A stretch of DNA of 64,000 bases, from assembly GCF_963921235.1 (NCBI RefSeq), contig NW_026948140.1:1-64000 (forward strand), written 5' to 3'. The position numbers and the translations under genes are program-made. Of this stretch, positions 15,101-51,979 are shown piece after piece. Position 1 is the first letter of the stretch; the number at the start of each line of letters is the position of its first letter. Below the pieces are notes generated by a model. The model made no database searches. It worked only from the letters and a program-made list of their open reading frames with translations, and had not been told where the DNA came from. The DNA is from Mobula hypostoma. Taxonomy: Eukaryota.

Positions 15101-15907
15101 ATTATGTGGTCGGTTGTGATGGATGAGTTGGGCAGTTGGGTTGGCGGAGTGACAAATTGAATGGATGAGGTGGTCAGTCAGTATGGAGGAAATAGGTGAT
15201 TAGGATGGACATTCGGGATAGATTATGTGTGTAGTTGGAAGAGACAAAGTGGACATTCGGGATGGACGAGGTAGGTGATCGAGTTGGAGAAGGTGGGTGG
15301 TCGGGATGGACAAGATATTCAGGATGGACTAGGTGGAAATTTGGAATGGTTGAAATAGGTAGTATGGACGAGATAATCAATTGGAATGCACGGCGTAGAT
15401 GGCTGAGATTGATGAGGTAGGCGGTCGGGATGGATGAGGTGGAGAGCCTGGATGGACGAGTAGGACAGTCACAAAAGAAGAGGTTGGCAGTGGGGATCCA
15501 CAAGGTGGACAGTCGTGAGGGAAGAGGTGGGCAGACTGGATGGATGACGTTGGCAGTTGGGATGTACGACATAAATGGTTGGAGGGGATGAGGTAGGCAG
15601 TTGGGATGGATGTGTTGGACAGTCAGGCTGGACAAGGTGAACAGTCAAGTTGGATGATGTGGCCGGTCAGAATAGACAAGGTGCACAGTTTAGGTGGTTG
15701 AGAGGGATGAGGTAGGTGGTTGGGATGGATGAGATGGACAGTCAAGTTGGATGACATGGCCAGTTGGGATGGATGAGGTGGGCATTAGGGGTGGACAAAT
15801 TGGACAGATGGAATGGATGAGTTGTACAGACAGAATTGAGGAAGTGGGCAGTCAGGATGGATGAGGTAGATGGTCAGGATGGATAAGGTGGACACTCGAG
15901 TTGGATA

Positions 15908-28135: not shown

Positions 28136-30020
28136 TCACTAGCATAAGCTTTTGTCTGTAGAGGTAGTGGTGGAACTTCTTTTTCTCTGTCTAGACTAAG
28201 GGCCTTTCGATTGATCCGTGCTTAGTTGCATTCTGTGCTCATCAGTGATCTTGAAGCAAACGCAACTGGGCATTGAGACCCATCTTTCATAATGTGTGAT
28301 AAAACAGCTCTAATGCCATAATGGGATGTTTCACACATCAGTCTGATGGGCAGGGATGGGTATAATGGGTGAGCAGTTCTTTGGATGTTATTAGTCTTTT
28401 TCTTTCCTTGAATGCTTTTTCAGATCTTTCTAACCATTCCTACTTTGATCCTGTCTGCAACAGTGCATTCAATGGATGCTGCACTGTAGCAATGTTTGAG
28501 AAAAACTGGTGGTAGTAGTTTACAAAGCCCAAGTATGACCCAAAATGTGACACGCTTTCTGGTTTGGTTGCCTATATCACTCAATCTTCTCTTGTGACTT
28601 ATGTAAGCCATGTTTGTCAATGACATGTCCTTAATATGAGATGTCATCAAAGTAACATTGTGTTCCTGGGATATCTTGGAGCACTTGGTCCATTACTCTG
28701 TGGCAGATTACTGGTGCTGATGTGATGCCAAAGACAAGACTATTACACTGGAACAGTCCCTTGTGAGTGTTGATTGTGAGGAAATTCCTGCTTGACTCCT
28801 CAAACTCCATTTGCAGATAGACTTGTGACAAGTCAATTTTTCAGAACCTCTCCCCACCTGCTAAAGATGCCAAAATGTCTTCTATTCATGACAGAGGATA
28901 CTGCACAGTACGCAGCACTGGGCTGATGCTCACTTTGAGATCTCCACATATGTGAATGGCTCTGGCCTTTCCTTTCTTGATCATTTGGACAATGGCCCAA
29001 TCGCTCCACTCAGCTTTGGAGAGAATTCCAGATGCCTCTAAGCTCTGCAGTTCAGCATCCACTTTAGGACACAGTGCGTAAAGCACTGGACGCACTTTAT
29101 GGAATCTTGGTGTTGGTGCTTCATCCAGTTCAATTCTGGCCTTCATGTCTTTGAGTTTACCAATCCCCTTCTCAAACACCTTCTCATTAGCTCAAAGCAG
29201 CTGTGCGAGTCTCTGGTTAGTGCAACGATTTGAGTTGCTGTTGCCTGTTGGTGCCACACTGAGAGCTTTGACTGAGTGCCAGTCTAGATGGATTTTTCTC
29301 AAACATTCATGTCCAAGAAGTGTTGGCTCTCCACTTTTCAATACATAAAGCTCTAGCTGTTGTGTTTGGCCTCCATACATCTCATTTACTTTCAGTTTGC
29401 CTTTTGGAGACACTTTTTCACCTGTGTAAGTCTTTAGCATCACTGAGGTCTTCTTTAATGGTATCTTACAAAAAAGAGTATTGTAGTCAGCTTCTGGAAT
29501 TACGGACAAAGCTGTCCCTATATCCAGCTCCATTTTCAGTTTTACACCAGACCGAGCTATTGTGATCCAAATGATTTTGTGGTTTGCTTTAGTTATACTA
29601 CAGAGTCTAGACATGAGAGGTCACCTCTGTCAGACTCTGTGTTGTCTGATTCTGTTTTACATTCGGTAACTATGCATTTGCTTAGTTTTGTGTTTTAGAA
29701 TTGTCACTCGGTTCTGTTTTTTATCTGGCTTGCACATTCTCTCGATGTGACCTTGTCTGTGACACTTTCTGCAGACTTTTCCTTTGAACCAACAGTCATT
29801 TGCATCGTGGGACAATTTGCCACATCGATAACATCTTAGACTTTTTGCACCATTCAGGGTCATTCTGTGCGTTTTACATTCTAACCTCTTTTTCTGTAGT
29901 TCTACTGCATCCTTTGCGACAGTCTCTAATGATATTGCAATGGTCAATGCCCATTCTAAGGTTAGGTCTCTTTCGGATAGTAGACACTTTTGAGTGCTTT
30001 GACTATACATACCACGCACA
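28136..30020 (-). mobile_element. Ty3/Gypsy LTR retrotransposon gag-pol relic (two CCHC knuckles, Mag-like)
   Basis: Gag CYRCGKLSHDANDC..CRKCHRQGHIERMC; protease-like MELDIGTALSVI; RT fragments LTINTHKGLFQ..FGITSAP..YFDD; RNase H-like PVAFASRSL near 28250. Many stops and frameshifts; no LTRs seen. Confidence 0.88.
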
Positions 30021-30074
30021 AGTCTGTCCCTTTTATTGCTCTAAAAGAAATAGATCTATACATTACATTTCCTA

Positions 30075-31168: not shown

Positions 31169-31678
31169 TAGAAACATAGAAAATAGGTGCAGGAGTAGGC
31201 CATTCGGCCCTTCGAGCCTGCACCGCCATTCAGTATGATCATGGCTGATCATCCAACTCAGAACCCTGTACCAGCCTTCCCTCCATACCCCCTGATCCCT
31301 TTAGCCACAAGGGCCATATCTAACTCCCTCTTAAATATAGCCAATGAACTGGCCTCAACTGTTTCCTGTGGCAGAGAATTCCACAGATTCACCACTCTCT
31401 GTGTGAAGAAGTTTTTCCTAATCTTGGTCCTAAAAGGCTTCCCCTTTATCCTCAGACTGTGACCCCTCGTTCTGGACTTCCTCAACATCGGGAACAATCT
31501 TCCTGCATCTAGCCTGTCCAATCCCTTTAGGATTTTATACGTTTCAATCAGATCCCCCCTCAGTCTTCTAAATTCCAATGAGTATAAGCCTAGTTCATCC
31601 AGTCTTTCATCATATGAAAGTCCTGCCATCCCAGGAATCAATCTGGTGAACCTTCTTTGTACTCCCTCTATGGCAAGG
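31169..31678 (-). mobile_element. CR1 3' end, same young subfamily as 56411-60451
   Basis: ORF 31258-31641 is nearly identical to the peptides encoded at 59970-60356; TAGAAACA tail. Confidence 0.93.
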
Positions 31679-31914
31679 TTGTCATAGAGGGACCATCAAA
31701 ACATGGAGGAACCATCATGAACTCCCACATCCCTGATGTTCATGTGATTTCAGTCTCTGATGCCGATGTACAAGCCGTCTTTAGAAGGGTGAGGTGAGGA
31801 CCTCTGTCGGTCAGAGTTGACCATGGATATTGTGTCTTAGCTGTCTAGATATGCAAGCTTGGGCAGTATGATATGGAGAACAAGCTGTTGCCCATGTAGC
31901 AAGCTCCCCCTCTT

Positions 31915-32310: not shown

Positions 32311-32490
32311 TATGATTAGCTTTAGATACTGAGAGCAAAGGTTTGGAGGTATGATTAGCATTTATGGTCAGATGTATGAGTGTCAATTATGATTGGAGTT
32401 ATGATCGGCAAATATGATCAGAAATATGATTGACAATTATGACCAGAGGTATGATTAGCAAATATGATTGGAGGTATGGTTGACAAGTTT
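32310..32490. repeat. Degenerate ~12-bp tandem repeat (TATGATnnnnnn) leading into an old CR1 RT fragment (to ~32940)
   Basis: TATGA recurs every ~12 nt and runs into GACAAGTTTGCAG (KFAD-like). Confidence 0.6.
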
Positions 32491-34259
32491 GCAGAGACAA
32501 GATCAATGGAAGTGTTGATAATCAGGCTACAGAGAGACTGATATTGATGTTTTGGTGAAATTGCAGATGAAGTTTAATGGTGATAAATGTAAGGTGATGC
32601 ATACTGCGAATAATAATGAGGCTGTATATCATGAATGAAGAGTCCCAGGGAGGACACTTGTGATTCCTGAAGGTAGAAGTAGATAACATTGTTAAAAAGG
32701 CACTTGGAATACTGCCTTTCATTAGCCAGAGCACTGAATACTAGAGCAGGAAGTTGTGCTCCAACGTTATCAAACCATGTTCGGAGCTCATTTGGAGTTC
32801 TGTATAGCTCTGGTCACCACACTGTAGGACAGATGTGAGCATGCTGGAAGGGCTGTAGTGGAAATTCCCCAGGATGTTGCCTGGGATGGAGCTGATCAGT
32901 TATGAGGAGAGACTGGATGGTCCGGGTCTGTTCCTAATCCAAAGTGTAGTGAGTACCAGGACTACACTGCTGGTGTTTGAGAAGAGTTCAGGCAGACAAA
33001 TGAGTTCCTTGGCCAGAGGTAGCTATGTTGGAAGTTAAGATTGATAAGGATGATGCCATAGGTTAGAATGACATGGCTAACAAATGTCCTGTTGTTTGTG
33101 CTCTATAAGACTTGAGTGGCTATGGCAGGATAACAAAGGATCTAATTCCCTACCCAGAGGTAGAATGTAGAGACACAGAGCAATACAGCACAGATACAGG
33201 CCCTTCAGCCTAACCATTCCGTGCCAACCATGGTGCCACCCAGCTGGTCCCAATTTCCAGCATTTGGCCCATATCTCTCCAAGTTCCTGCCCTCCATGTA
33301 CGTATCCAAGTGCTTTTTAAATGATACTTTTGTACTTCCCTCAACCACTTGCTCTGGCACTTTCAGATCCCATTTAAATCTTTCTCCTCATACCCTATTT
33401 CTATGCCCCTAGTTTTTGAACTTCCCTCCCTTGGGCAAAAAGACTGCTATCCTTCACCCTATCTATGTAATTGATAAAAGGATTATAGAGGATTAGAAGC
33501 ATGTGGATTGTACAGTACATCATGATTAAGGAACTGAAGTGTGCCAAGTTGCAAGCACAAAGGCCCAAATTGTGTGAAGAGCTAGAGGGTTAAATGACAG
33601 ATGACTGAGTAATACGATTATAAGATTAATTGTGATGTGGTGGACTCTTGCCAGCAATGTGAAGGCACTGTTTGAGGGTAATTGGAACAGTAAATGTCAG
33701 TCTTTCCAGAAAGGTCACACTGTGAGAATGAATAAATAAAAAAGCCCTCCACAGCAGATAATGCACAGAGAATTCAACAAACTGCTGTATAGTCAATGAA
33801 ATTACTCTGGTTCAACAACCTCTCTGGAGCCCGTTCCTTCTCTCCTGTTTATCAAGTGAATAGAAATTTTCCTCAGAATACAACAAAGCAACTCCACAGT
33901 GCATTGGTGGTCTGGAATATTACTCCCTCACTCTACAACTAAAGAATTAGCCCAACTCCCAGCAGCGTGACAAGACCGTCAGCCCTTTCCTTTGCAAGTT
34001 ACTGGAACCAATTCTATACAAGGAAAGACCGTTTTATACAGTTGAATACAGAAACCTCACCATAAATGAAAATTCCACAAACATGGTATCAATCATTTTG
34101 ATATCCACACCACATCCTGCCTTTCAGAATAATTAGCTTTCAGCTATACAGATGTAAGATGTATCAACATTCCATAAATATTATAGGCAAGAAGACGCAA
34201 GCATCTTTATCACAAGGTTAGTCCCACCATGGCCAATGGCCCCAGATACAGAGTTACTG

Positions 34260-34421
34260 TCATTGTTTCCCTGGTGATTCACATATGAAATTCTCTGGCA
34301 AATACCAACTGACTATGAGGACAAAGTTGCTCAGAACGATGGCAACAATGTTGAATGGCCGTGCTGTAGATCCATAATGCAGTGCTCCTTCCATGTCACC
34401 AACACATTTCTGATCTCCAGG
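34260..34421 (-). pseudogene. IFITM: Diverged IFITM/CD225-family terminal exon (exon 2); pseudo-exon or alternative last exon
   Basis: Acceptor ...TTTCTTTTAG (AG at 34422-34423), then PGDQKCVGDMEGALHYGSTARPFNIVAIVLSNFVLIVSWYLPENFICESPGKQ*. Aligns to IFITM exon 2 and to 48467-48637, but SRDRK has become PGDQK. Confidence 0.8.
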
Positions 34422-35091
34422 CTAAAAGAAAGTAAGTATAATCATGGCTGTGCTCCAAATAACATCACATGGAGTACTTTCTTCCCTCTTGTTGATAAAC
34501 ACTTGACCACTTCACACAGTAATTTCCACCTCAATACCAGAGTCACACAGAACGGAAACCAGCCCTATGGTCAAACAGATCCATGCTGACCAAAATTCTC
34601 ATACAAGTTAGTCCCATTTGCTTGTGTTTGACCCATATCCCTCTGAACCTTTCCTATCCATGTACCTGTCCAAATATCTTTGAAATATTGTTGTCACGCC
34701 TGTCTCAACCACATTCTGTGGCAACTGGTTCCACACACCATGGATTACTGATGAATTATTACATTTAAATGTCAGTTAATTCATTAAGAATTAAAACAAC
34801 AGTTGTCTGTATTTTAACCCAAAGACAACATTTTCTAAGTTGGCTAATAGCATTTAAAAATAATGTAAAGTTCACAGTCTTCAATGCCTTGGCAATTCAG
34901 CACAAGAGCAGGAGGAGCAGAACACTTGGCTCGCCATTAACTATAATCATTGCTGAAGATTGTGAGAGTTGTTGCTGCCTTCTCTCTATCAGGCAGTGTG
35001 TTGGAGATTTGAACTGCCATTTGGGTGAAATGCTGTTATTCAGACCCAACGTCCGCCACTTACCCTATGCTTTCAGATTTTATTTATATAT

Positions 35092-35380
35092 TTGTTTATT
35101 TATTGAGATACAGTGTGGAACAGGCCTTTCCAGCCCCTTGAGCCATGCCACCCAGCATTCCCCAATTTAATCCCAGCCTAATCACCAGACAATTTACTAT
35201 GACCAATTAACATACCAACCAGTATGTCTTTGGACTGTGGGAGGAAACTGGAGTACCCAGATGAAACCCACGAGGTCACGGAGAGAGTGTACAAACTCCT
35301 TACAGAGAGCAGTGGGAATTGAACCCAGGATGCCTGTACTGGAAAGCATTGTGCTAACCACTGTGCTACTGTGGCGTCCC
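35092..35380 (-). mobile_element. tRNA-derived SINE (V-SINE-like)
   Basis: Minus-strand A box TAGCACAGTGG and B box GGTTCAATTCC; V-domain-like GGAGTTTGTAC...GGTACTCCAGTTTCCTCCCACAGTCCAAAGAC. Confidence 0.82.
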
Positions 35381-35419
35381 AGTGAAGGTGAGTGGTGGAA
35401 AGGTTAGGGGAGAGGGCAA

Positions 35420-35508
35420 CACTCATAACACGCTGGAGGAACTCAGCAGGTCGGGCAGCATCCGTGGAAAAGATCGGTCGACGTTTCAGGCTGGAACCCT
35501 TCGTCAGG
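35420..35508 (-). mobile_element. Penelope-like element terminal fragment with hammerhead core
   Basis: Reverse complement reads CCTGACGAAGGGTTCCAGCCTGAAACGTCGAC...CCTGCTGAGTTCCTCCAGC, homologous to 40023-40110. Confidence 0.78.
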
Positions 35509-36025
35509 CTTTTTCCCAGGGCTGAAATGGCTAGCACAAGAGGGCACAGTTTTAAGTTGCTTGGAAGTAGGTACAGAGGAGATGTCAGGGGTAAGTTTTT
35601 TACACAGAGAGTGGTGAGTGCGTGGAATGGGCTGCCGGCAGCAGTGGTGGAGGCGGATACGATAGTGTCTTTTAAGAGACTCCTGGACAGGTACATGGAG
35701 CTTAGAAAAATAGAGGGCTATGGGTAACCCGAGGTAATTTCTAAGTAAGTACACGTTCGGCACAGCATTGTGGGCTGAAGGGTCTGTATTGTGCTGTAGG
35801 TTTTGTATGTTTTGATGTTTCTCTGTCAGAAAGTAGTGGGTGCCTGGAACGCATTGCCAGGGCTGACAGAAGCAGATATATTAGGAACATTTAAAAGAGT
35901 CTGAGATATTGATATGGATGTCAGCAAAATGGAGGATTATGGGCTGTGTAGGAGGGAAAGATTAGACAGACCATTGGATAAGTCTAAAAGTTCGGCACAA
36001 CATGGTGAGCCGAAGGGACTGTACT
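35509..36025 (+). mobile_element. Two CR1 3' ends in tandem
   Basis: LFPRAEMASTRGHSFK..RVVSAWNGLP plus 3' UTR to ~35822; a second, older copy at 35825-36025. Confidence 0.85.
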
Positions 36026-36206
36026 ATAATTTTCCAGCCTCATATAGGATGGAAACAACCGAGATATCCTTCCCCCCAGATTCCAGTTTCAGGTTTTACA
36101 GAGATTCAGCACCTCAGATGGTGCTGTTGCTGTTACTGTGCAGCATGAAATCAGCACAAAAACAAGATCTTTGGCCTACCATCTCTGTGCCGACCATGAT
36201 GCCTGC

Positions 36207-36817
36207 ACATGGTCCATATCCCTCCATCCCCCCATCTGTCTGCGCATGGTGCATATCCCTCCATTCCTCATCTGTCTGTACATGGTCCATATCCCTCCAA
36301 TCCCCCATCTCTCTGCGCATAATCCATATCCCTCCATTCCCCATCTGTCTGTGCATGATCCATATCCCTCCAATCCCCCATCTCTCTGCGCATAATCCAT
36401 ATCCCTCCATCCCCCCATCTGTCTGCGCATGGTGCATATCCCTCCATTCCTCATCTGTCTGTACATGGTCCATATCCCTCCAATCCCCCATCTCTCTGCG
36501 CATAATCCATATCCCTCCATTCCTCATCTGTCTGTACATGGTCCATATCCCTCCAATCCCCCATCTCTCTGTGCATAATCCATATCCCTCCATTCCCCAT
36601 CTGTCTGTGCATGATCCATATCCCTCCAATCCCTCATCTGTCTGTACATGGTCCATATCCCTCCAATCCCTCATCTGTCTGTACATGGTCCATATCCCTC
36701 CATCCCCTCATCTGTCTGTACATGGTCCATATCCCTCCAATCCCTCATCTGTCTGTACATGGTCCATATCCCTCCATCCCCTCATCTGTCTGTACATGGT
36801 CCATATCCCTCTATTCC
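36207..36817. repeat. 36-37-bp minisatellite (~16 copies), unit GGTCCATATCCCTCCAATCCCTCATCTGTCTGTACAT
   Basis: GTCCATAT recurs at 36651, 36688, 36725, 36762 and 36799 (37-nt period). Confidence 0.95.
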
Positions 36818-38948
36818 CAATCTCGTTGGACAGCAGCACAGATCCAGTAGGAGTGTTCCCACGCAGGTTTGGAGTGTGGCTTGAACAGCAACAGTTTTCA
36901 GCATGAGTCTTTGATAGGACAGCAGCGTAGATGCAATGGAACTATTCCCGCGTAGGGCCAGAGTGGCAATAGGAAAACCTAGTCTCCATAAAAGAGAGGT
37001 ATGGGTCGGTCATCATGGGAACAGTCATCCATAAGACCATAAAACACAGGAGCAGAATTAGGCCATTCAGCCCATCGAGTCTGCACCACTATTCCATCAT
37101 GGCTGGTCCAGAATCCCACTCAACAACATATACCTGCCTTCTTGTCATATCCTTTGATGCCCTGACTGATCAGGAAAAAACAACTTCTGCCTTAAATATA
37201 CCCATGGACTTGGCCTCCACCACAGTCTGTGGTAGAGCATTCCACAGATTTACTACTCTGGCTAAAAAAAAATTCCTCATTACATCTGTTCTAATCAGCC
37301 TTTAATTCTGATGCTGTGCCTTGTAATTCTGGATACCCCCACCAGAGGAAACATCCTCTCCATATCCACCCGATCTAGACCTTTCAACATTCAGTAGCTT
37401 TCAGTGAGGTTCCCCCACATTCTTATCAATTCCAGTGAGTACAGGCTCAAACCTGCCAAATGCTCCTCATATGTTAACCCCTTCTTTCCTGGAATCATCC
37501 TTGTGAACCTCCTCTGGACTCTCTCCAATGATATACTGTACGTCATAAAAAGCAGCAGTCCCAACATCAACCTTTGTGAAACTCCACTGGTAACCGGCAG
37601 CCAGCCAGAATAGGATCCCTTTATTCCCACTCTGTTTTCTGCCGATCAGCCAATGCTCCACCCATGCCAGTAACTTCATGTAATTCCATGGGCTCCTTGC
37701 CAAAGGCCTTCTGAAAATCCAACTACACCACATCCACTGCATTTCCTTTGTCTACCCTGCCTGTAATTTTCTCAAAAAATTGCAGTAGGTTAGTCAGGCA
37801 GGATTTTCCTTTCAGGAAACCATGCTGGCTTTGGCCTATTTTGTTATGTGCCTCCGTGTGCTCTATAATCTCATCCCTAACAATCGATCCCAACAACTTC
37901 CCAACCACTGATGTCAGGCTAACAGGTCTATAGTTTCCTTTCTGCTACCTCCCACTCTTCTGAAAAAGTAGAGTAACATTTACCATTTTCCAGTCATCAG
38001 GTACAATGGCAGAATCTATCGATTCTTGAAAGATCATTGTTAATGCCTCCACAATCTCTCCAGCAACTAACTTCAGAACCCAAGGGTGCATGCCATCAGG
38101 TCCAGGAGATTTATCCATCCTCAAACCATTAAGCTTCCTGAGCACCTTCTCAGTCGTAATTTTCACTGCACATACTTCACTTCCCTGACACTCTTGAATG
38201 TCCGGTATACTGCAGATGTCTTCCACTGTGAAGACTGATGCAAAATACACATTCAGTTCCTCTGCCATCTCTGCGCCTCTCATTACAATATCTCCAGTGT
38301 CATTTTCTATTGGTCTTATACCTACCCTCAACTCTCTTTATACCCTTTATATACTTAAAGGAGCTTTTAGTATCTTCTTTGATATTAGTCACCAACTTCC
38401 TTTCATAGTTTATCTCTTCCTTCCTAATGATCTTCTTAGTTTCCTTCTGCTAGTTTTTAAAATCTCCTCAATCTTCTATTTTCCCACTAGCTTTGGCTTC
38501 TTTGTGTGCCCTCTCTTTTGCTCTTACTATGCTCTGACTTCACTTGTCAGCCACAGTAGTAGCCTTCTTCCCTTTGAAAATTTCTTCTTATTTGGAATAT
38601 ATCTGTCTTGCACATCCCTCATTTTTCATAGAAACTCCGGTCATTGCTGCTCTGCTGTCCTTCCTGCAAGTGTCCCTTTCCAGTTAACTTCGACCAGTTC
38701 CCCTCTCATGCCATCGTATTTTCCTTTATTCCACTGAAATACTGACACATTGGAATTTAGTTTCTCCTTCTCAAATTTCAGAGTGAACTCGGTCATATTG
38801 TGATCACCGTTCCCTAAGGGCTTCTTAACCTTAAACTCTCTTATCACCTCCGGATCATTGCACAATACCCAATCCAGCACAGCCAATCCCCTAGTGGGCT
38901 CAACAGCAAGTTGTTCTAAAAAGCCATCCCTTAGACGTTCTACAGATT

Positions 38949-40150
38949 TTCTATTCCCTATTCCCAGTTCCTCCATCTCCGCCGCATCTGCTCCGAGGAC
39001 AAGGTTTTCCGTTCCAGGACATCTCAAATGTCCTCTTCCTTTAAGGATCGTGGTTTCCCTTCTGCTGTCATCAATGATGCCCTCACCCACATCTCCTCCA
39101 TTTCCCGCACTTCGGCTCTCACCCCATCCTCCCGCCACCACAACAGGGACAGAGTTCCCCTTGTCCTCACCTAACACCCCACTAGCCTCCTGATCCAACA
39201 CATTATCCTCCGCAACTTCCGCCACCTTCAACAGGACCCCACCACTAAGCACATCTTTCCCTTCCACCCCTTTCCGCCTTCTGCAGGGATCGGTCCCTCT
39301 GCGACTCCCTGGTCCACACGTCCCTCCCCACGGATCTCGCACCCAGCACTTATCCTTGTAAGTGTAAGTGCTACACCTGTCCCTACACCTCCTGTCTTGC
39401 CACCATTCAGGGCCCCAAACAGTCCTTCCAGGTGATGGCAACACTTCACTTGTGAGTCTGTTAGGGTTATCTATTGCATCCGGTGCTCCTGGTGCGGCCT
39501 CCTCTACATCGGTGAAACCCGACGGAGATTGGGGGACCGCTTCGTTGAGCACCTCCGCTCCGTCTACCACAACAGACAGGATCTCCCAGTAGCCACCCAC
39601 TTCAACTCTGCTTCCCACTCTCATTCAGATATGTCCATAAATGGCCTCCTCCACCACCATGATGGGACTAAACTCAGGTTGGAGGAGCAACACCTCATAT
39701 ACCGTCTAGGTAGTCTCCAGCCCCTTGGGATGAACATAGAATTCTCCAACTTCCGGTAATTCCCTCCCCCTCCCTTCCCCTATCCCTATGTCACTCTGCC
39801 CCCTCCCCAGCTGCCTATCACCTCCCTCATGGTCCCACCTCCTTCTACTACCCATTGTGTTTTCCCCTATTCTTTCTTCACCTTTCCTGCCTATCACCTC
39901 CCTGCCTCCCTTCCTCCACCCCTTTATCTTTCCCCTTACTGGTTTTTCACCTGGAACCTACCAGCCTTCTCCTTCCCACCCTCCCCCCACCTTCTTTATA
40001 GGGCCTCTGCCCCTTCCCTCTACAGTCCTGACGAAGGGTTCTGGCCCGAAACGTTGACTGATCGTTTCCACGGATGCTGCCCAACCTGCTGAGTTCCTCC
40101 AGTGTGTTGTGAGTGTTGCTTTGACCCCAGCATCTGCAGATTATATTGTG
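38949..40150 (+). mobile_element. Penelope-like element (GIY-YIG end plus terminal repeat), 5'-truncated
   Basis: YCIRCSWCGLLYIGETRRRLGDRFVEH GIY-YIG-like motif; pyrimidine-rich tract; 10-bp TSD TCTACAGATT at 38939-38948 and 40151-40160. Confidence 0.9.
40023..40060 (+). ncRNA. Minimal type I hammerhead ribozyme motif of the Penelope terminal repeat
   Basis: Stem I CAGTC/GACTG, core CTGACGA, stem II GGG..CCC, GAAAC, GTT triplet, palindromic AACGTT. Confidence 0.72.
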
Positions 40151-42232
40151 TCTACAGATTCTCTCTCTTGAGGTCCAGTACTGGCCTTGTTTTCCCAATC
40201 CACTTTCATGTTAAAATCCCCGACAATTATCATAACCTTGCCCTTCTGACACATCTTTTCTATCTCCTGCTGTCATTTGTAATCCACATCCTGGCTGCTG
40301 TTTGGAGGCCTGTATACAACTGCCATTAGGGTCCTTTTACCCTTGCCATTTCTTAACTCAACCCATAGAGACACTACACCTTCCGATCCTATGTTGTCCC
40401 TTTCTAATGATTTAATATTATTTCTTATACACAGGGCCACACCACCCCCTCTGCCTACTAACCTATCTTTCCGATACACCGTATATCCTTGGACGTTCAG
40501 CTCCCAATGGCAGCCATCCTTTAGCCAAGTTTCAGAGGTGACCACAATGTCATACTGGCCAATCTGTAGCTGAGTTTCAAGATCATCCACTTCATTTCTT
40601 ATTCTGTGTTCATTCAAATATAACACTTTCAGTCCAGTATTTGTTGCTTTCTATTTTAACCACATCACACCTCTATTGCCCTGTAACTGAGCCCACTGGC
40701 TGTGATTATGCCTCATCTCCTGCTTGCCCTCTCTATCACCTCTGTTGCACACTATCTTTGATTCATTTCTGTTATCCCCTTCCTCAGCCCTATCACTCAA
40801 TTTCCAATCCCCCTGCCAAATTAGTTCAAACCCTCCTGAACAGGTCTATTAAACCTGTCTGCTTGGATATTGGACCCCTTTGGGTTCAGGTGTATCCAGC
40901 CCTTTTTGTACAGGTCGTACCTCCCTCAGAAGAGGCCCCAATGATCCAGAAATCTGAAGCTCTGCCCCCTACACCAGCCTCTCAGCCACGCATTAATATA
41001 CCTGATCATGTTATTCTTGCACTCATTAGCATGTGGCACAGGCAACAATCCTGAGATTACTAGCCTGGAGGTTCTGCTCTTCACCTTCCTACCTAACTAC
41101 CCGAATTCTCTCTTCAGGACCTCCTCCCTTTTTCTACCTATGTCATTGGTACCAACATGTACCAAGGCTTCTGGCTGTTCACCCTCTTTCTTCAGAATAC
41201 TGTGCACCCAATCCAAGACATCCCAAACCCTGGCACCTAGGAGGCAACACACCATGCGAGTATCTCTATCAGGCTGACAGAACCTCCTGTCTGTTCCCCT
41301 CACTATGGAATTCCCTAAGACTACCGCATTTCTCATCTTCCCCTTTCCCGTCTGCACCACGGAACCAGGCTCAGTGCCAGAGACCAGATCACCGTAGTCA
41401 TCCTCTGTCAGGTCACAACCCTTAATAGCATCCAAAATGAGGTAACAAATACTGAGGGGCTTCTCTCTACTATCTGAGATCTTCCCATCCCTTCCCTGAC
41501 AGTCACCCACTTAACTAACTTCTGCAGCCTCGGGGCGACCAACACCCTGTAGCTCCTCTCTATCTCCTGCTCATTTTCCCTAATAAGCTGTAGGTCATCG
41601 AGCCGCAGTTCCAGATCCCCAATACTGTCTCTCAGGAGCCACAATTCGATACACCTGGTGCAAATGTGGCCATCTGGGAGACTGGAAGATTCCCAGGATT
41701 CCCACATCTGACACCTAGAGCAAAGTACAGAAATGCTTTCTATTCCTCAAAAAAATGCAGGGAAAAACTAAATCCACACACCCACTTACATCAGTGAAGC
41801 CTCCTTTCACTGAAGCCCGAATGAGCCAAAGCCTTACCACTCTGACTCAGCCCACTCCTTTGCTAACAGCTCTGCCAGGCAGTATCTCCTTTTAATGCCA
41901 GTGGTGCTGATAGTGGAGCTACTGGTCAGTAATCTTTAAGACAGGACACTTTACTTTACTTCTGGATTGAAATAATGATTCAAGGTTTCCTTGAAGCAGA
42001 TGAGGACAGCAGATGCTGAAGTGAGAGGTTGAATGTGTTAGCTATTTCAGGAGCTGTTCGATTTAAAGCTGAATTTCAGAACCTGTCCAGGGACTACAAC
42101 TAGAATATAAAGTAGAAGTTACTGTACAACTGCATAAAGCATTTGGCCACAGTGAAATATATATGTGATTCTTGTCAGCACGCTACAGGAAGGATGTGAT
42201 TGCAGTAGAGTGGGTACGGAAGAGATTCACTG

Positions 42233-44570
42233 ATAGCGTGTTTCCCAGTCTCTTTTTGCATACCACCCACCTGAAGCACTTTCATACTTCCCAACACCCC
42301 CATAAAGCACCATCATACTTGCCAACGGCCCTCTTGGACACAGTATATAGTGCTCCAGTCAATGTGAAAACATGTCTATTATATCCAACATGAGGGAAAT
42401 AATTCCACTTAATTTTTATTTGACTTTAAATCTAGCTTACACAGTGCCTGTATGCTGTACAACAGTTTTAATATCAATGTGATCCTTGAGATTGATGGTT
42501 TTAGCAAGAGTTGAAATATCGGGTTCAGTGACAGCAAAAGCCTTAAGTCCCCACACATAACAATATCTAAGTGGTTTCTGTTTTTTGTGAGTATGTGGTT
42601 CACTGCACTGAAGCCTCTTTCAACAAGGTAGGTGGATGGAAATGCAATGAAGAGCAGTTGTCTCTTCTCCAAAGACCAGGAAACTTCGTGACAGTGTAGC
42701 CACAAAGCACAAAAGCCAACATTTTTGAAAAGCACTTGTGCGTCTTCACCATTTTGATTTTCGATAGTTCCTTCTTGCAAGCTCTCTTCTTGTTCTTCTA
42801 CCTTGCAAAAAATGGGTTAATTACCCAGTCCTGAATTTGTAGATATTTCAAATCCTTGAATTGATTCTGAAAATTCTTCTTCAGTGACTGCGGGATAAGC
42901 AGTACTCTTGTAAATCACCATCTGTGAAAGAGTGTGCCATACTTCCATCTACAGAAACTGTGAGAACATTATTCTCCCAATAATTTCAAATTTTCCAATA
43001 AAATATACTTTTTGTCCGGATAAAATTGAAATTCTCATCTTGCAGTTTCATATCTAGAATGTTCATTTTGTCATACAGATGAGCTAGGTATGTCACATCT
43101 CCATGTAGATGTTTAATCTTGTTTCCCAAGCTCTTGCTCACTTTTGAGCAAAAATGCAACCACTGTACTAAAAAGATCAAAGAAATGTTTTAAGCAGCAG
43201 CCTTTTGACAGCCAACGCACATGCACATCAATGTGAAGAAGGAAGCACTCAAACTCTGTATCATTATCTTAACTGGCGAAATATTCTGCTATTTAATGGA
43301 TGAGGTTTAATTTTGATAATAGCAGATATTACAAGTCATGCTTGAAAAAAAATTGCTGGCTGAGTTTTTTGACTGTGAGCTGTTGATGATGAACGACACA
43401 ACGGATTGCAAATATACTTCAAATTACTTTTTTCATAAACACCACAAAACCATCATGGCGACCTGCCATATATGGTGTTCCATGTGTTGAACAAAAAATC
43501 ATGTTCCTAATGGGAATACTTTTATCCTCAATATACATTTTGAGCTAGTAGATTGATTCTCCTTTGATAATTGTTTTTAACTTTTTACAAAAGAGAATCT
43601 CTTCATAAACTTTTCCATTTTTATGCTATTAGCAATGCCTCTTGTCTTATATAGATGACTCATCCAGTTGTATCTCAAATTCTGTTTTTCATAGCTGTCT
43701 GCATAGTTGATACTCAATGTGTTCACTCATTTCATCAATACGACGAGTTACAGAGTTAAAGGAATTGATTTCAAAACACTGGTATCCATTTTGAGAACAA
43801 TGGCGAGCACTTCTGATACAGCAGTCATTATTAATCTTTCACCAATTGTATGAGATTTTCCACACTTTGCTATCATTTTAGAAATGTTATAAGAAGCAAT
43901 GAGATCACTGTCAAGGTAATTTCTTTTAGCTTTCTTGGCAAATGATGAATGTGTAATGCTTTTCAAATGCTTCTTTTATCTCCTGGAACTGATTAATACC
44001 ATAAGTAGCCTTTTCAGGGTGTCTTTTACGGAAGTGTTCCTGTAATCTTGATGGTTTCATGGCTCCATTAGATACTACAGTATTACAAATAAGACACACG
44101 GGGCATCGCTGGTCTTACAGGAACAGAATAAAACTATACTCCAGATATGTGACTGTTCTGATGCACTTTCTGTATTTGGTTTCTTAGCTGAATTATAATT
44201 CAAGGCTTCACCGTCTTCAGTATCTTAGAGATCCCGCTATACTTATTAATCTGTCATTAACAGGGCTAAATTGAAATAAAAAGTTAACATGAACTGGGAA
44301 TGCCTATCCATTGTTGATGACGACTGCAAGTTGTCATGGATGGAATGATGGTAGCAGCATGCAAAGGAACTGCAAGGCGAAGATGAGGATGATCACAACA
44401 GCAAAAATTACATTGACGAGGATTCAATGGGAATCTGAACACTAGTCAGGATAGAGCTACCTTTATAGTCATTTACACTATTCCAGTTAGTGTGATTGAC
44501 CAGTCACTATGTCTTATTATCCCCAAATATGGTACTTGACTGCACACGTGAAGCCGAGGTCGCTTTCAAC
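42233..44570 (-). mobile_element. hAT (Charlie/Buster-type) transposon relic
   Basis: Minus-strand fragments CLIC..MKPSRL..H (BED-like), KSHTIGERLI, RWLSKG and FPSTYLVERGFSAV (dimerisation domain). Many stops; ends approximate. Confidence 0.85.
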
Positions 44571-44583
44571 ACCTCGAGGAATC

Positions 44584-44775
44584 TCCCCCTCCCCCTCCCA
44601 CTTTCAAATCTCTTACTAGCTCTTCTTTCAGTTAGTCCTGACAAAGGGTCTTGGCCAGAAACGTCCACTGTATCTCTTCCTAGAGATGCTGCCTGGCCTG
44701 CTGCATTCACCAGCAACTTTTTTGTGTGTGCTTGAAATTCCAGCATCTGCAGATTTCCTCGTGTTTGTGTTTTTA
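44584..44775 (+). mobile_element. Penelope terminal fragment with 13-bp TSD
   Basis: ACCTCGAGGAATC at 44571-44583 and 44776-44788; degenerate hammerhead CTGACAAAGGG..GAAACGTC. Confidence 0.8.
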
Positions 44776-44966
44776 ACCTCGAGGAATCCTCGGGGTCAGC
44801 AGGTTCACTGATTGGCTCTATTTCAACGTTTGGTTCTGGCCAGACCTGTATCGTTGCACAACCTGTTTTCCGTAGATCTGTAGAAAAAGTTGAGAGGGTT
44901 TACGTGACTTACGAACTGTTAAATTGTGTGAGCTGGTTCCGTGCTGTGAGTCAAGGGGTACTGTTG

Positions 44967-45697
44967 AGGCTGATTTATACTTGTGCATCAAAGGTATGCT
45001 GTAAGTACGGCGTAGCTGCGTACCCTACGTTGTAACCTAATGCGCACCTCTCCCAAAATGTAACTACGCATCTCATCGACGCAGACCGAAACAACTGTGA
45101 TTGGTCCACTTGGTAGCATCGTATTTCCTCCTACGCTGAAATAGCTTCCCATTGGGCGACTGAAGGGCAGGGAAGGAACTCTGGCTGCAATGCTTTCCAT
45201 AAAGCTTTACAGACCTCCGAAATTATGGAGGACTCTGTGCTTGATGCCAGTTTGTAGCTAGCTGCTACAGCCTGTTGACTTCTACCCAAAGTTAAAACTC
45301 GAATGGTGATTGCCAGTCTCTGAGTATACTGTGCGTACATTGATGCGAAATAAATGGTTGGAGACGATGAACCAAATCGACAAATCTACATGCCGACATC
45401 CGAAAATTTTTGAAATGCGTTTCCTCGTCCATGTCTCTCAATGGCCGGACAAGCACAGAGAATTCACCCTCCTTCAGCTTCAGTCGCTATTGTTTGAAGT
45501 TTGAGTTTCTTCGCGTTGAGTTTCAACATGAAGAAACTCAGCACAGTGGCGTAGACACCGCACTGCCAACTAGCATTTCGGCGGTGAATTGCAGAGTGAC
45601 GCAAACTCACCAACACACAAGTATAAATGCTCACAACGGCGGAGCCCACTTTCGTAGGCTACGGAGTAAGCTAGTACATACAAGTATAAATCAGCCT
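44967..45697 (-). mobile_element. PIF/Harbinger internally deleted element (731 bp)
   Basis: TIR AGGCTGATTTATACTTGT / ACAAGTATAAATCAGCCT; flanks TTG / TTA; transposase remnant [26 protein letters not shown]. Confidence 0.85.
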
Positions 45698-45829
45698 TTA
45701 GGCACCCTGGTTGCTAATTCATGTATCCCTAATAATGTCTCCTTGGTTGGTAAGGTCGGATGAGATTGCCAAATTTCAGATAGTTATGAGGACAATTGCG
45801 CACGGCCTGCAGAGCTTGGTGTGCTCCAT

Positions 45830-46050
45830 TAAATCTGTGGAATTTGTTGCCATGAGCAGCTGTGGAGTCCAACTCATTGGGTGCATTTAAGGCAGAGATA
45901 GATAGGTTCTTGATTAACCAGAGCATCAAAGGGAACGGGGAGAGAGCAGGGGAGTGGGGATGACTGGAAGAATTGAATCAGCCCATGACTGAATGGTGAA
46001 GCAGAGATGAAGGGCTGAATGGCCCACTTCTGCTCCTATATCTTATGGTC
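45830..46050 (+). mobile_element. CR1 3' end
   Basis: NLWNLLP..FKAEIDRFL followed by a CTTATGGT tail. Confidence 0.82.
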
Positions 46051-46634
46051 GTATTAACAGTCGGGCAGGTCTCGTGCCTCAAGTTAAGATGCCACTTAGC
46101 ATAAGCCCCCTGAGAACGTTGAACCGCCCTCCCAACCCCGGGACACATAACTGACCCCATTGTCAATCACTGCACTCGGATGTTGGCTGGGATCAAATGT
46201 TTCAATTGTGAAGACAGACTAGATTGGCTTGGTTTGTTTTCCTCAGAGTGGAGGAGGCTGAGGGAGGTGCCTGATCTGAAGGACATAGATAGTAAGGATA
46301 GTGAGAACATTTCCCTCAAAATAGAGATGTTTAATATGTAGGGATGGGGGGCATAGGTTAGTCCGGATTAAGGGGATATTTTAAAAATTTGAAACAAATT
46401 GCCTGATACGCTGAAGGAGGGAGGTACTTTCTCAATATTAAAAAAGCTGCATCAGTGCATAAATCACTAAAGCAGAGGTCGTGGACTAAGTTCTGCCAAA
46501 TGGGGTCAGTGCAGATGGGTAGATAATGGCCAACAAACAACTTGTTTCTGTATCCCAGGCTTTGATACAGAAAGATGATTTTATGTTTCTCTCCACACAA
46601 CCAGTATTATGCAATTGTAATACATATCATTGCT

Positions 46635-46730
46635 TGTCTTGAGGAAGGGTCTCAGCCCAAAATGTCGATTATTTATTCCTCTCCATAGATGCTGCCTGAC
46701 CTGCTGACTTTCTCTTGCATTTTCTTTGTT
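46635..46730 (+). mobile_element. Degenerate Penelope terminal fragment
   Basis: GTCTTGAGGAAGGGTCTCAGCCCAAAATGTCGA...GATGCTGCCTGACCTGCTGA, homologous to 40025-40100. Confidence 0.6.
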
Positions 46731-47196
46731 ATGATGTTAAACCTTACTTGTAATTATCACCTGTTACCCAATGCAAGAACACACAGTACTACGGAAGATA
46801 AAGCAACTGTTTACTTGTAGCTCGCTACTGGAGAGAGAGCACACTTCTCGGGCACACATGGGATCCGTACCAGTTGTGGGGGGGGGGGGTGTCTCTCTCT
46901 CTCTCTCTCCACACACAGATACAAAATCCTTTTTTATATCCTTTCTGTCACGTAACAGGAAACAAATTTCCTCACTACCCCCACAGTCACGTGCCAACAG
47001 TAGTATTTTAAGACATGGAACCCTTGGTTGCTTTACTAGACTAAAGGTCATCAACCTCAGGAAATGTGCAGGATGAGATGGCCCCTCGCTTTTTCAACCG
47101 TAGTTTCACATTCATTTGGACTGTTTTACCACATCCCGTTCTGCAGGTGAGATAAGGCTTGTGAGTTCGTATCGAACCTTTGTCCATTCTAAGTTG

Positions 47197-47837
47197 GGAG
47201 GAAAAGATGGTGGCGCGACACAGCACGTGCGGCCGTTCCGAATGACATCGTATGTGTTAAATAGGGGCCGTGCGCAATCCTGATTTGATGGTGACAGCCG
47301 TGAGAAGCACAGAGGAACATCTGGAGAAACTCCTGAAATGCCCGCTTCGCTGCCGCTGCTCCTGTGCGATCGAGAATCTCCGGAGGTGAAGGCTCCAAAT
47401 CCTCGGCTTTGCCTATTGCCTGTTGCTGGGGTGGGGTCGAAGCGCTCAGCAGAGATGGTGCTCGGTGCTCGGTGTCGGAGGCTCGGAGTTTTCGGACGGA
47501 TTCGGAGTCGGACTGTGGTCAGATGCTTCCAGGATGCTGCATCGGCAAGCTTGTGGTGCTGGAAGTTCACCGTCTGCCTGAGATGATGGGACTCTCGAGA
47601 GACTTTGAGACTTTTTACCGTGCCATGGTCTGATCTTTATCAAATTACGGTATTGCTTTGCACTGTTGTAACTATATGTTACAATTATGTGGTTTTTGTC
47701 AGTTTTTCCAGTCGGTTTGTCATGTGTTTCTGTGATATCATTCTGGAGAAACAATGTCTCATTTCTTAATGCATGCCTTACTAAATGACAATAAAAGAGG
47801 ACTGTGTGTCCTCATAATCTAATCTAATCTAATCTAA
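47197..47837 (+). mobile_element. Non-autonomous non-LTR element with CpG-rich 5' part and (AATCT)n tail; family uncertain
   Basis: AAGATGGTGGCG start, CpG-rich body, AATAAA near 47790, TAATCTAATCTAATCT tail. Confidence 0.5.
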
Positions 47838-48249
47838 TTTATAGACCTAATTTACACAACAAAAAAAAATGCTTAGCTTAATCCTTGCAGTTTCGATCCA
47901 CAAAGCATAACATCTGCAAGGTTATCAGTCAGAACAGAACAAACAAAGATCTGTAGCAATTTTAACCTGTTATTCACAAGAGTCCAAAAATCATTTCCCG
48001 ACCCCTTTAACCCTTTAATATCTCAATCATGGACTTGAATTTAATGGTCTAATATCCTCAGTGACACCAATAAGTATTTTCACTCATATCTAGTTTTCAA
48101 TTCATGAGAACAAACTGATATTGTAACACACTCTTTGAGTTACCTCATTGAATTCTGAAAATCCATACAAATGGTGACACAAAAGCAAAAAGTAAATTCA
48201 AAAACCCAACCAGTAACCTCCAAGACTCCATAAATGTGTTTTCAATTAC

Positions 48250-48255
48250 TTTATT
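48250..48255 (-). promoter_or_regulatory. Candidate polyadenylation signal (AATAAA) of the IFITM gene
   Basis: TTTATT on +, about 210 nt downstream of the IFITM stop codon. Confidence 0.55.
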
Positions 48256-48466
48256 AATAACATCTAAGCCATATCTTGTCCCCAGTTTAAGGAAGAGATC
48301 TATATTGTTGCCAGTTGATTAAGTATATCAGGCCTCCATAGAGATTACAGACAAAGTAAGCAATAGTAAACAATGCATCAAGAAATTAAACAGCTCCATC
48401 ACAAGGATGCTCCTTCCATGGCCAATAAACTGCTGAGACCATCATGTCTCCTCCTGTGTATCTCCA

Positions 48467-48637
48467 TCAAAAATTCTTGGGGACATTCATCATGGCAACT
48501 GTTCCAGTAGCTACCAGTACAACGATGATTATGAAGAAAAGAACACCAATCACAGTGGCTGCAATATTGAGGGACCGTGCTGTAGATCCATAGTGCTGAG
48601 CTCCTTCGATGTCACCCACAACTTTGCGATCTCTAGA
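48467..48637 (-). CDS. IFITM: Interferon-induced transmembrane protein (IFITM/CD225/dispanin) family, terminal coding exon 2
   Basis: Acceptor TTTTTTCTATTAG (AG at 48638-48639), phase 0, then SRDRKVVGDIEGAQHYGSTARSLNIAATVIGVLFFIIIVVLVATGTVAMMNVPKNF*. Matches the IFITM exon-2 start SRDRK..GD..GA..Y.S.A..LNI plus a C-terminal TM helix. Exact paralogue not assignable. Confidence 0.93.
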   Translation of the reverse strand, partial: SRDRKVVGDIEGAQHYGSTARSLNIAATVIGVLFFIIIVVLVATGTVAMMNVPKNF

Positions 48638-49026
48638 CTAATAGAAAAAATATATAAATAAATATGCAAGCAGACCAAGACTACCACGTTAGTGATATCT
48701 AATTGGTGAGACAAGTTGGTAGTCTTTAGTGCAACTACCTCTTTTTATTTAAAATAACAGATTTGGAATCAGGTTTATTATCACTGGCATTTGTCATGAA
48801 ATTTGTTCATAAAATGCCACCAGCATAACTGTATTAATAAAATAGAGCACAGTCTTAAACCGGGGTATTACAATAAAATACACTATAAATTATAATAATA
48901 GATATATTTTAAAAATTAAGCAGAGCAAAAGCAGCAAAAAAAAGTGAGCTTGTGTTGATGGGTTCATTGTCCATTCAGAAATCTGATGCCACCGAGGAAG
49001 GGGACGGAAGTACATTTTATTTATTG

Positions 49027-50379: not shown

Positions 50380-51979
50380 CAAACCCCATTTCCAGAAAAG
50401 TTGGGATATTTTCCAAAATGCAATAAAAAAATCTGTGATATGTTAATTCATGTGAACCTTTATTTAACTGACAAAAGTACAAAGAAAAGATTTTTAATAG
50501 CTTTACTGACCAACTTAATTGTATTTTGTAAGCATACACAAATTTAGAATTTGATGGCTGCAACACACTCAACAAAAGTTGGGACAGAGGCATGTTTACC
50601 ATTGTGTTATATCACCTTTCCTTTTAATAACACTTTTTAATCGTTTTGGAACTGAGGATACTAATTGTAGTAGATTTGCAATTGGAAATTTTCTCCATTC
50701 TTGCTTGATATAAGACTTCAGCTGCTCAACAGTCCGTGGTCTCCGTTGTCTGATTCTCCTCTTCATGATGCGCCAGACATTTTCAGTAGGAGATAGATCT
50801 GGACTGGCAGCAGGCCAGTCAAGCACACGCACTCTGTGTCTACAGAGCCACGCTGTTGTATCCCGTGCAGAATGTGGTCTGGCATTGTCCTGCTGAAATA
50901 AGCATGGACGTCCCAGGAAGAGACGTCGCCTTGATGGCAACATATGTCTCTCTAAAATCCTAATATACGCCTCAGAGTCAATAGTACCTTCACATCCATG
51001 CAACTCACCCATGCCGTGGGCACTGATGCACCCCCACACCATCACAGATGCTGGCTTTTGCACCTTTCACTAATAACCATCTGGATGGCCGTTTTCATCT
51101 TTGGCACCGAGAATTCAACGCCCGTTTTTTCTGAAAACTAGCTGAAATGTGGACTCATCTGACCACAGCGCACGGTTCCACAGTCTTTCAGTCCATCTGA
51201 GATGAGCACGGGCCCAGAGGACTCGCCGGCATTTCTGCATATAGTTGATGTATGACTTCCTCCTTGCGTAATACAATTTCAAGTTGCATTTCTGGATGCA
51301 GTGACGGATTGTGTTGAGTGACAATGGTTTTCCGAAGTACTCCCGAGCCCAGGTGGCTAGAATTGTCACAGTAGCAAGACGGTTTCTTAGGCAGTGCCGC
51401 CTGAGGGCTCGAAGATCACGCGCATTCAACAGCGGTTTCCGACCTTGCCCTTTACGCACTGAGATATCTCTGAATTCTCTGAATCTTTTCACAATATTAT
51501 GTACTGTAGATGTTGAAAGACCTACATTCTCTGCAATCTTGCGTTGAGAAATGTTCCTTTTGAACTGACTAACAATTCTCTCATGAATTTTGGCACAAAG
51601 GGGTGAGCCACAACCCATCCTTGCTTGCAAAGACTGAGCCTTTGATGGATGCTACTTTTATACCCAGTCATGATACCTCACCTGCTACCAATTAGCCTGC
51701 TTAATGTGGAGTCTTCCAAACCGGTGTTACTTGAATATTCTGTGCACTTTTCAATCTTATTTTAACTCTGTCCTAACTTTTGTTGAGTGTGTTGCAGCCA
51801 TCAAATTCTAAATTTGTGTATGTTTACAAAATACAATTAAGTTGGTCAGTAAAACTGTTGAAAATCTTTTCCTTGTACTTTTGTCAGTTAAATAAAGGTT
51901 CACGTGAATTAACATATCACAGACTTTTGTTTTTATTGCATTTTGGAAAATGGCCCAACTTTTCTGGAAATGGGGTTTG
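50380..51979 (-). mobile_element. Complete-length Tc1 (DD34E) DNA transposon, 1600 bp, ~200-bp TIRs, TA TSD
   Basis: TA|CAAACCCCATTTCCAGAAAAGTTGGG ... CCCAACTTTTCTGGAAATGGGGTTTG|TA; inner AACAAAAGTTGGGACAG direct-repeat-like motif. Confidence 0.97.
50596..51630 (-). pseudogene. Tc1 transposase, single frame with three premature stops
   Basis: HTH N-terminus, WSDESTF, FQQDNARPH, WPAASPDLSPTENVW (34 residues between D and E); in-frame TGA, TAG, TGA between 51067 and 51117. Confidence 0.93.

What the first reader, a model, noticed from the sequence alone, without database searches (positions are those of the whole stretch)
34260..48639. Two IFITM terminal exons 14 kb apart with no first exon between them: alternative last exons or orphan duplicate
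Seen: two minus-strand phase-0 exons, each with an AG acceptor and each homologous to IFITM exon 2. Their 3' flanks are also homologous (ATCACAAGG..CCATGGCCAAT at ~34209 and ~48398). I found no exon 1 (WS..N..CCLGF..YSVK|GT) between them or upstream within the window. Known: IFITM genes usually have two coding exons split at K|SRDRK and expand in tandem. Inference: one upstream exon 1 could splice to either exon, giving antiviral IFITM isoforms with different TM/C-termini, which would be an unusual way to diversify this family. The simpler alternative is that the distal exon is a dead partial duplicate.
Basis: partly seen in the sequence, partly recalled or inferred. Interest (0 to 1): 0.72.

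Follow-up and report, generated by a model that had tools for sequence, protein, structure and literature searches.

The report
Ray IFITM gene with decayed exon
A ray genome holds two copies, 14 kb apart, of the last exon of an IFITM-family membrane-protein gene: one is intact and likely the normal working exon, and the other is a damaged duplicate that is likely dead, so this is probably ordinary gene-duplication debris and not a new splicing trick.

Summary
Two minus-strand, phase-0 CD225 exons with TAG acceptors start at 48637 and 34421, and no IFITM exon 1 lies in the window. The two are not equivalent.

The proximal exon equals exon 2 of Mobula hypostoma XP_062895188.1 (56/56 aa). Contigs of three runs leave it exactly at the acceptor, as splicing would give.

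The distal exon is an old genomic duplicate of about 400 nt: intron end, exon and 3' flank (E 6.5e-24). It has lost 7 of 24 conserved residues (real genes lose 0-2), including both otherwise invariant arginines of SRDRK. It has a likely 7-nt frameshift, a shortened hydrophobic tail, no AATAAA and dN/dS 0.55.

Verdict: a dead pseudo-exon behind an ordinary gene (about 0.84). A functional alternative last exon is not excluded (about 0.06): the acceptor is intact, and one run has an unresolved trace there.

The scan noted other IFITM copies 88 and 209 kb away, not this pair. A better lead: skate and electric-ray isoforms show duplicated alternative FIRST exons.

The parts
48467..48637 (-). Proximal exon 2, coding part (56 aa + TGA), IFITM / dispanin A2b-like; intact
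   Evidence: identical to the end of XP_062895188.1; contigs of X7, X19, X9 cover it and leave the stretch at 48639
48638..48662 (-). Proximal 3' splice site (17 of 22 pyrimidines, TAG)
48250..48466 (-). Proximal 3' UTR ending in AATAAA at 48255-48250
   Evidence: X7 and X19 contig pieces stop at 48259 and 48270 (contigs cannot prove an end)
34260..34421 (-). Distal decayed exon-2 copy (53-aa open frame from the acceptor; SRDRK changed to PGDQK)
34422..34441 (-). Distal 3' splice site, still well formed (16 of 22 pyrimidines, TAG), like the proximal one
   Evidence: last 25 nt, p=0.033; 102-nt ungapped block 34441-34340, 78%
34279..34310 (-). Likely 7-nt deletion near 34310; the older frame resumes at 34308 and stops at TGA 34281-34279
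   Evidence: 15 of 27 nt, best of 25 offsets, p=0.018; protein-level p=0.21; 2 of 5 gap settings keep the main 7-nt block
34043..34259 (-). Decayed copy of the 3' UTR and of about 60 nt past the poly(A) signal; the AATAAA itself is gone
36203..36818 (.). 37-nt tandem repeat (16.8 copies) in the spacer
42400..44250 (-). Frameshifted transposase-like remnant (hAT label recalled), a large non-self-matching block of the spacer
   Evidence: no Pfam hit for the two ORFs sent

Best explanation
The exon at 48637 matches the last exon of an annotated ray IFITM (dispanin A2b-like) protein and is likely spliced to a first exon that lies right of the window, while the exon at 34421 is a damaged genomic copy of it that is likely a dead pseudo-exon. 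Shown: identity to the RefSeq protein, contigs that leave at the acceptor, the homologous block from intron end to 3' flank, and the lesions. Inferred: an old tandem duplication copied exon 2 with flanks (or a whole gene whose exon 1 was later lost). The copy was likely constrained for a time and then decayed, while transposons filled the 14-kb spacer. Transcripts would mostly end at the proximal poly(A) signal; any rare splice into the distal acceptor would give a predicted non-functional protein.
For: Proximal: 56/56 aa identical to XP_062895188.1 exon 2. Three of the four runs laid there list a contig that covers the exon up to 48639 and carries 172 (X7, 0 differences), 124 (X19) or 62 (X9) further letters that lie elsewhere; the fourth (X1) lists an unspliced piece 48614-48801. 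Distal: 17 of 37 codons changed before the indel, dN/dS 0.55. 7 of 24 positions that are at least 90% conserved in 17 distinct cartilaginous-fish sequences are changed, against 0-2 in each real gene; 11 distal residues occur in none of them. R2 and R4 are kept in 114 of 114 distinct homologues and both are lost. R2 sits ten residues before the second Gly of GxxxG, the spacing of IFITM3 R85 and G95; R85Q nearly abolishes antiviral activity (PMC11730294, passages; the mapping by spacing is my inference). Longest run free of D/E/K/R/N/Q/H/P is 9, against 18-30 in 22 cartilaginous-fish proteins. The profile match stops at residue 37 in the native frame. No AATAAA or ATTAAA in 33350-34270. Branch length 6.1 against a median of 0.13. 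IFITM pseudogenes are common: 112 in 27 genomes (PMC3499546, passages).
Against: The distal acceptor is well formed and the frame is open for 53 codons. GxxxG, the Tyr and 17 of 24 conserved positions are kept, and the piece still passes Pfam's cut-off. If all 31 nucleotide differences were neutral, 12.1 conserved positions should be lost; 7 or fewer has P=0.010, and the count fits only if about 18 of the 31 were neutral. The best 19-residue hydropathy is still 2.02; 5 of 131 real homologues score as low, and 2 of 131 have as short an uncharged run. The frameshift is only moderately supported (p=0.018 DNA, p=0.21 protein; three of five gap settings prefer another path). One run (X7) has a trace of cover inside 34385-34453 (mean depth 1.48) whose record was not listed, so it could be a rare spliced piece. 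X1 contigs run on past the proximal poly(A) signal to 47969 and further, so read-through may occur. The 114-of-114 count is biased, because homologues were collected by words shared with the query.
Confidence: 0.84

Rival explanations
1. Functional alternative last exon: one upstream exon 1 splices to either exon, and the distal form gives a 106-aa IFITM with a changed loop and a short tail, perhaps a decoy or damper of the main form.
For: No exon 1 between the two; same strand and phase; intact acceptor; open frame; more conserved residues kept than pure neutral decay predicts (P=0.010); unresolved trace in X7; alternative splicing of IFITM genes is documented in mammals (PMC11801718, section 10 read).
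Against: Loss of both invariant arginines and five more conserved residues; likely frameshift; no canonical poly(A) signal (only TATAAA at 34038). The X7 contig runs unbroken across the proximal junction, which suggests no competing exit of similar depth (inference; contigs drop rare forms). The three M. hypostoma proteins seen all end in intact exons.
Confidence: 0.06
2. The distal exon is the last exon of a separate, still active older paralogue whose own first exon lies beyond 64000, so that this gene straddles the proximal exon. A candidate partner is the second type of CD225 first exon seen in skate and Narcine X2 isoforms.
For: The distal copy looks old: 24/37 identical to skate proteins against 20/37 to its neighbour. 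A second, old exon-1 type exists in batoids. An unchecked scan note reports a spare exon-1 piece in an intron 88 kb away.
Against: The same lesions as above. In the three species where the second exon 1 is annotated, it joins the intact exon 2. No such exon lies in the 15.4 kb upstream of the proximal exon. The tree cannot place so long a branch.
Confidence: 0.05
3. 5'-truncated retrocopy: a spliced mRNA was reinserted, and the 'acceptor' is a decayed exon 1-exon 2 junction (a T-A-M-I-like word lies in frame just upstream).
For: Likeness upstream fades within about 20 nt (the nearer 94 nt beyond that: p=0.60); the in-frame word resembles the end of exon 1.
Against: An exon-1 DNA profile scores 12.3 bits there (shuffle p=0.28; 194 of 580 tiles score as high; positive controls at least 33.0). 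The last 25 nt match the proximal intron (p=0.033), and likeness continues past the poly(A) signal (p=0.022-0.030).
Confidence: 0.03

Closest known systems
Mobula hypostoma dispanin subfamily A member 2b-like, XP_062895188.1 (with paralogues XP_062895189.1 and XP_062895190.1; longest contig 729,289 for all three)
   Same: Proximal exon identical to its last 56 residues; same split after Lys.
   Different: No protein seen uses the distal exon (the last search is weak).
Duplicated IFITM pseudogenes under birth-and-death evolution (Zhang et al. 2012, PMC3499546; passages seen)
   Same: Tandem cluster, disrupted frame or lost transmembrane segment.
   Different: Here only exon 2 with flanks is detectable. 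Whether that survey covers cartilaginous fish was not checked in full.
Alternatively spliced bat IFITM (rsIFITMa/b; Mak et al. 2024, PMC11801718; passages and section 10 seen; author name recalled)
   Same: One IFITM gene giving two proteins by exon choice; 36% of 206 mammals show some IFITM alternative splicing.
   Different: That case is alternative FIRST exons with both forms expressed; here the spare exon is a last exon, damaged, with no junction shown.

Membership tests
IFITM / dispanin A (proximal exon) | CD225 domain, C-terminal half | tested here: met
   PF04505 44.3 bits, cut-off 27.1
IFITM / dispanin A (proximal exon) | Two coding exons, split after Lys before SRDRK | tested here: met
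   Matches the end of the 109-aa XP_062895188.1; contigs leave at the acceptor; exon 1 itself is outside the window and was not seen
IFITM / dispanin A (proximal exon) | Central Arg, GxxxG and C-terminal transmembrane helix | tested here: met
   (hydropathy 3.21, uncharged run 26)
IFITM / dispanin A (proximal exon) | Interferon induction and antiviral activity | not testable with these tools
   The promoter is outside the window; no assay
Functional IFITM (distal exon) | CD225 likeness | tested here: met
   29.5 bits
Functional IFITM (distal exon) | Invariant loop arginines (R85-equivalent by spacing) | tested here: not met
   R to G and R to Q; both kept in 114 of 114 homologues
Functional IFITM (distal exon) | GxxxG motif | tested here: met
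   GDMEG
Functional IFITM (distal exon) | Full C-terminal transmembrane helix | tested here: inconclusive
   Uncharged run 9 against 18-30; hydropathy 2.02, below all 22 cartilaginous-fish proteins but matched by 5 of 131 homologues
Alternative last exon | Own 3' splice site, same strand, no first exon between | tested here: met
Alternative last exon | Spliced transcripts into it | tested here: inconclusive
   Contigs only; one unlisted trace in X7
Alternative last exon | Own canonical poly(A) signal | tested here: not met
   No AATAAA or ATTAAA in 33350-34270; TATAAA at 34038
Alternative last exon | Conservation of the exon across related species | not testable with these tools
   No ray genomes are held
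Duplicated (unprocessed) pseudogene fragment | Copied intron-side and downstream genomic flank | tested here: met
   Modest support: p=0.033 acceptor, p=0.022-0.030 downstream, p=0.003 anchored upstream, though 2 of 192 real tiles score higher, likely through a shared repeat
Duplicated (unprocessed) pseudogene fragment | Disabling lesions and relaxed constraint | tested here: met
   dN/dS 0.55; 7 of 24 conserved positions lost; likely frameshift
Processed pseudogene | Fused exon 1-exon 2 junction | tested here: not met
Processed pseudogene | Target-site duplication and poly(A) tail | not tested
   Likeness continues past the poly(A) signal; no direct search for a duplication

The most novel reading that the evidence does not exclude
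The batoid IFITM locus is a cassette gene with duplicated CD225-coding first exons (annotated as isoforms in two skates and an electric ray) and duplicated last exons. The distal exon is used on stimulation to make an arginine-less, short-tailed isoform that oligomerises through its intact GxxxG and tunes the active form.
Probability: 0.06. Interest if true: 0.45.

Novelty: new member of a known kind. Interest (0 to 1): 0.1.

Why it matters
As it most likely stands, it matters little: one more IFITM pseudogene fragment beside an annotated gene, useful only for annotating the cluster and dating its duplications. If the distal exon were spliced in and conserved, it would be a way to vary the loop and tail of an antiviral protein that my searches did not find described. 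'IFITM' with 'alternative last exon' gave 3 papers, seen as listings only, none on this by title or abstract start. Searches for IFITM in cartilaginous fish gave no paper on the subject by title among those listed (9 of 9 listed; 10 of 132). The library lacks most subscription papers.

Tried and rejected
Own genome: none is held, so the DNA right of the window, and exon 1, could not be read.

Contigs on the distal stretch 33350-35400 (4 of the 22 listed runs): X1, X2 and X4 have no cover over 34247-34453. X7 has none over 34247-34384 and a trace in 34385-34453. Lack of cover in contigs proves nothing, tissues are unknown and 'RNA' is the tool's guess, so it is not used as evidence. The letters that run off at 48639 were not displayed, so their identity as exon 1 is inferred.

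Protein search with the distal peptide: no candidate. This is weak, since skate proteins that share an 11-residue word were not returned either.

Retrocopy idea from an in-frame T-A-M-I word: rejected. Far-intron likeness 34740-34920 to about 48785-48960 (p=0.028) is collinear but falls in a repeat, so it is given little weight. Likeness beyond about 33980 / 48100: none (p=0.83).

Tree of 20 exon-2 rows: the distal row is too long to place. PDB search: only weak hits, E 0.5 and 0.71, so R85 was mapped by spacing only. Rfam over 15000-64000: 0 hits. Pfam on 47 of 128 ORFs in 28000-64000: only transposon domains. ISRE-like scan: two matches (28967, 37933), no null, not used. Scan look-ups near, by sequence and in relatives: nothing. 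No structure or complex prediction was run. No supplements were opened.
Full report
What is there. The window is ray DNA of the genus Mobula or a close relative, judged from protein identity. It is dominated by a 22-nt satellite (1-15144, with decayed copies to about 28010) and by transposon remnants. Two minus-strand exons begin right after TAG acceptors at 48637 and 34421 and read 56 and 53 codons to a stop. Both match Pfam CD225 above its cut-off (44.3 and 29.5 bits). They are homologous: 80% over 92 nt, and one nhmmer match spans distal 34440-34043, with E 6.5e-24 and no third copy. No exon 1 is detectable by a protein HMM (best 7.2 bits against 72.5-85.0 for 14 training-set controls, partly cut from view) or by a DNA profile (best 19.9 against at least 33.0 for 40 decayed controls).

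The proximal exon is an ordinary gene end. It is identical to the last 56 residues of Mobula hypostoma XP_062895188.1 and differs by one residue from XP_062895190.1. Of 22 runs listed for this stretch, four were laid on it. X7 (0 differences in two pieces), X19 and X9, from three studies, each list a contig that covers the exon up to 48639 and carries 172, 124 or 62 more letters that lie elsewhere. X1 lists an unspliced piece across the acceptor. A break exactly at the acceptor is what splicing gives. That the extra letters are exon 1 is inferred, because they were not displayed, and the runs' RNA status is the tool's guess. An AATAAA lies at 48255-48250, next to where X7 and X19 pieces stop. 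Exon 1 is therefore likely more than 15.4 kb upstream, outside the window. Two unchecked notes of this scan place further IFITM copies with long introns 88 kb and 209 kb to the right.

The distal exon is damaged. Seventeen of the first 37 codons differ from the proximal copy; dS 0.53, dN 0.29, ratio 0.55. That is about what one constrained and one free branch would average (inference). Of 24 positions at least 90% conserved among 17 distinct cartilaginous-fish sequences, it has changed 7, while real genes change 0-2. Both arginines of SRDRK are kept in 114 of 114 distinct homologues (137 of 138 fetched proteins could be anchored; the set is biased towards the query's words), and both are lost here. 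By spacing to GxxxG, the first corresponds to IFITM3 R85, whose mutation nearly abolishes antiviral activity (PMC11730294, passages). After codon 37 the best register is a 7-nt deletion (15 of 27 nt, p=0.018), with the older frame ending in a stop at 34281-34279. Support at protein level is weak (p=0.21), and three of five gap settings choose another path, so the frameshift is likely, not shown. Either way the native frame stops matching the family after residue 37, and the uncharged run is 9 residues against 18-30. The poly(A) hexamer is gone.

Results against this reading. The acceptor is intact, the frame is open, and GxxxG and 17 conserved positions survive. A model in which all 31 differences are neutral is rejected (P=0.010), so the copy was probably constrained for part of its history, or many differences arose at tolerant sites on the proximal branch. 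Hydropathy of 2.02 could still allow a weak helix. X7 shows a trace of cover within 34385-34453 (mean depth 1.48) whose record was not listed; its size would fit a rare spliced piece as well as a chance or genomic match. X1 contigs extend past the proximal poly(A) signal.

Origin. A genomic duplication fits better than a retrocopy. The last 25 intron bases match (p=0.033), likeness runs about 60 nt past the poly(A) signal (p=0.022-0.030), and an exon-1 profile finds nothing upstream (p=0.28). Each flank test is modest. The copy looks old: it is closer to skate proteins (24/37) than to its neighbour (20/37) and keeps residues that Mobula and Hypanus genes have changed, though a tree cannot place it. 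Whether it was born without exon 1 or lost it cannot be told here.

Comparison with what is known. Vertebrate IFITM genes have two exons, expand in tandem and leave many pseudogenes (PMC3499546, passages). Alternative splicing of IFITM genes is known, with alternative first exons tested in horseshoe bats (PMC11801718, passages and section 10). I found no paper on IFITM alternative last exons or on ray IFITMs among the listings (listings only). The proximal exon passes the testable IFITM features. The distal exon fails the arginine and poly(A) tests for a working last exon and meets those for a duplicated pseudogene fragment.

A side result points the other way round. Database isoform pairs X1/X2 of Narcine bancroftii, Leucoraja erinacea and Amblyraja radiata share an identical exon 2 (3 of 3) but use two different first exons, each coding the N-terminal half of CD225. 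The three X2 exons group together, weakly (73/98 on 28 columns). These are gene-model predictions that I could not check against reads.

Verdict. An ordinary annotated IFITM exon 2 plus a likely dead duplicate (0.84); functional alternative last exon 0.06; straddling second gene 0.05; retrocopy 0.03. Interest 0.1; new member of a known kind.

Noticed in passing
Proteins P0005/P0006, P0010/P0066, P0011/P0068 (not in the window): Database isoforms X1/X2 of an electric ray and two skates share exon 2 but use two different CD225-coding first exons; the X2 exons group weakly (73/98). Possibly an old alternative-first-exon cassette in batoids.
   Followed up: partly
window 1-15144, decayed to about 28010: 22-nt satellite, 688 copies at 89% match, strongly G-skewed, followed by older decayed copies interrupted by repeats; the distal exon lies about 6 kb from its edge.
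   Followed up: no
window 42400-44250 (-): Frameshifted transposase-like remnant, hAT type by recalled motifs; no Pfam hit for the two ORFs sent, no terminal repeat found.
   Followed up: partly
window 57343-60105 (+): LINE ORF2 in two long consecutive ORFs (441 and 478 aa; endonuclease and reverse transcriptase). Its 3' part has a 96% inverted match at 31172-31683.
   Followed up: no
window 50596-51651 (-): Tc1/mariner-type remnant (DDE_3, HTH_Tnp_Tc3_2) between 168-nt inverted arms at 50422-50589 and 51766-51933, 94% complementary.
   Followed up: no
window 29192-30040 (-): Weak zinc-knuckle and aspartyl-protease hits below Pfam cut-offs; likely an LTR-retrotransposon remnant.
   Followed up: no
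window 47801-48144: Low-depth contigs of X7 and X19 match here with 14 and 12 differences, while X7 matches the exon with none; likely from a near-identical paralogous copy elsewhere.
   Followed up: no
window 32346-32486 and 36203-36818: Minisatellites of 25 nt (5.6 copies) and 37 nt (16.8 copies).
   Followed up: no
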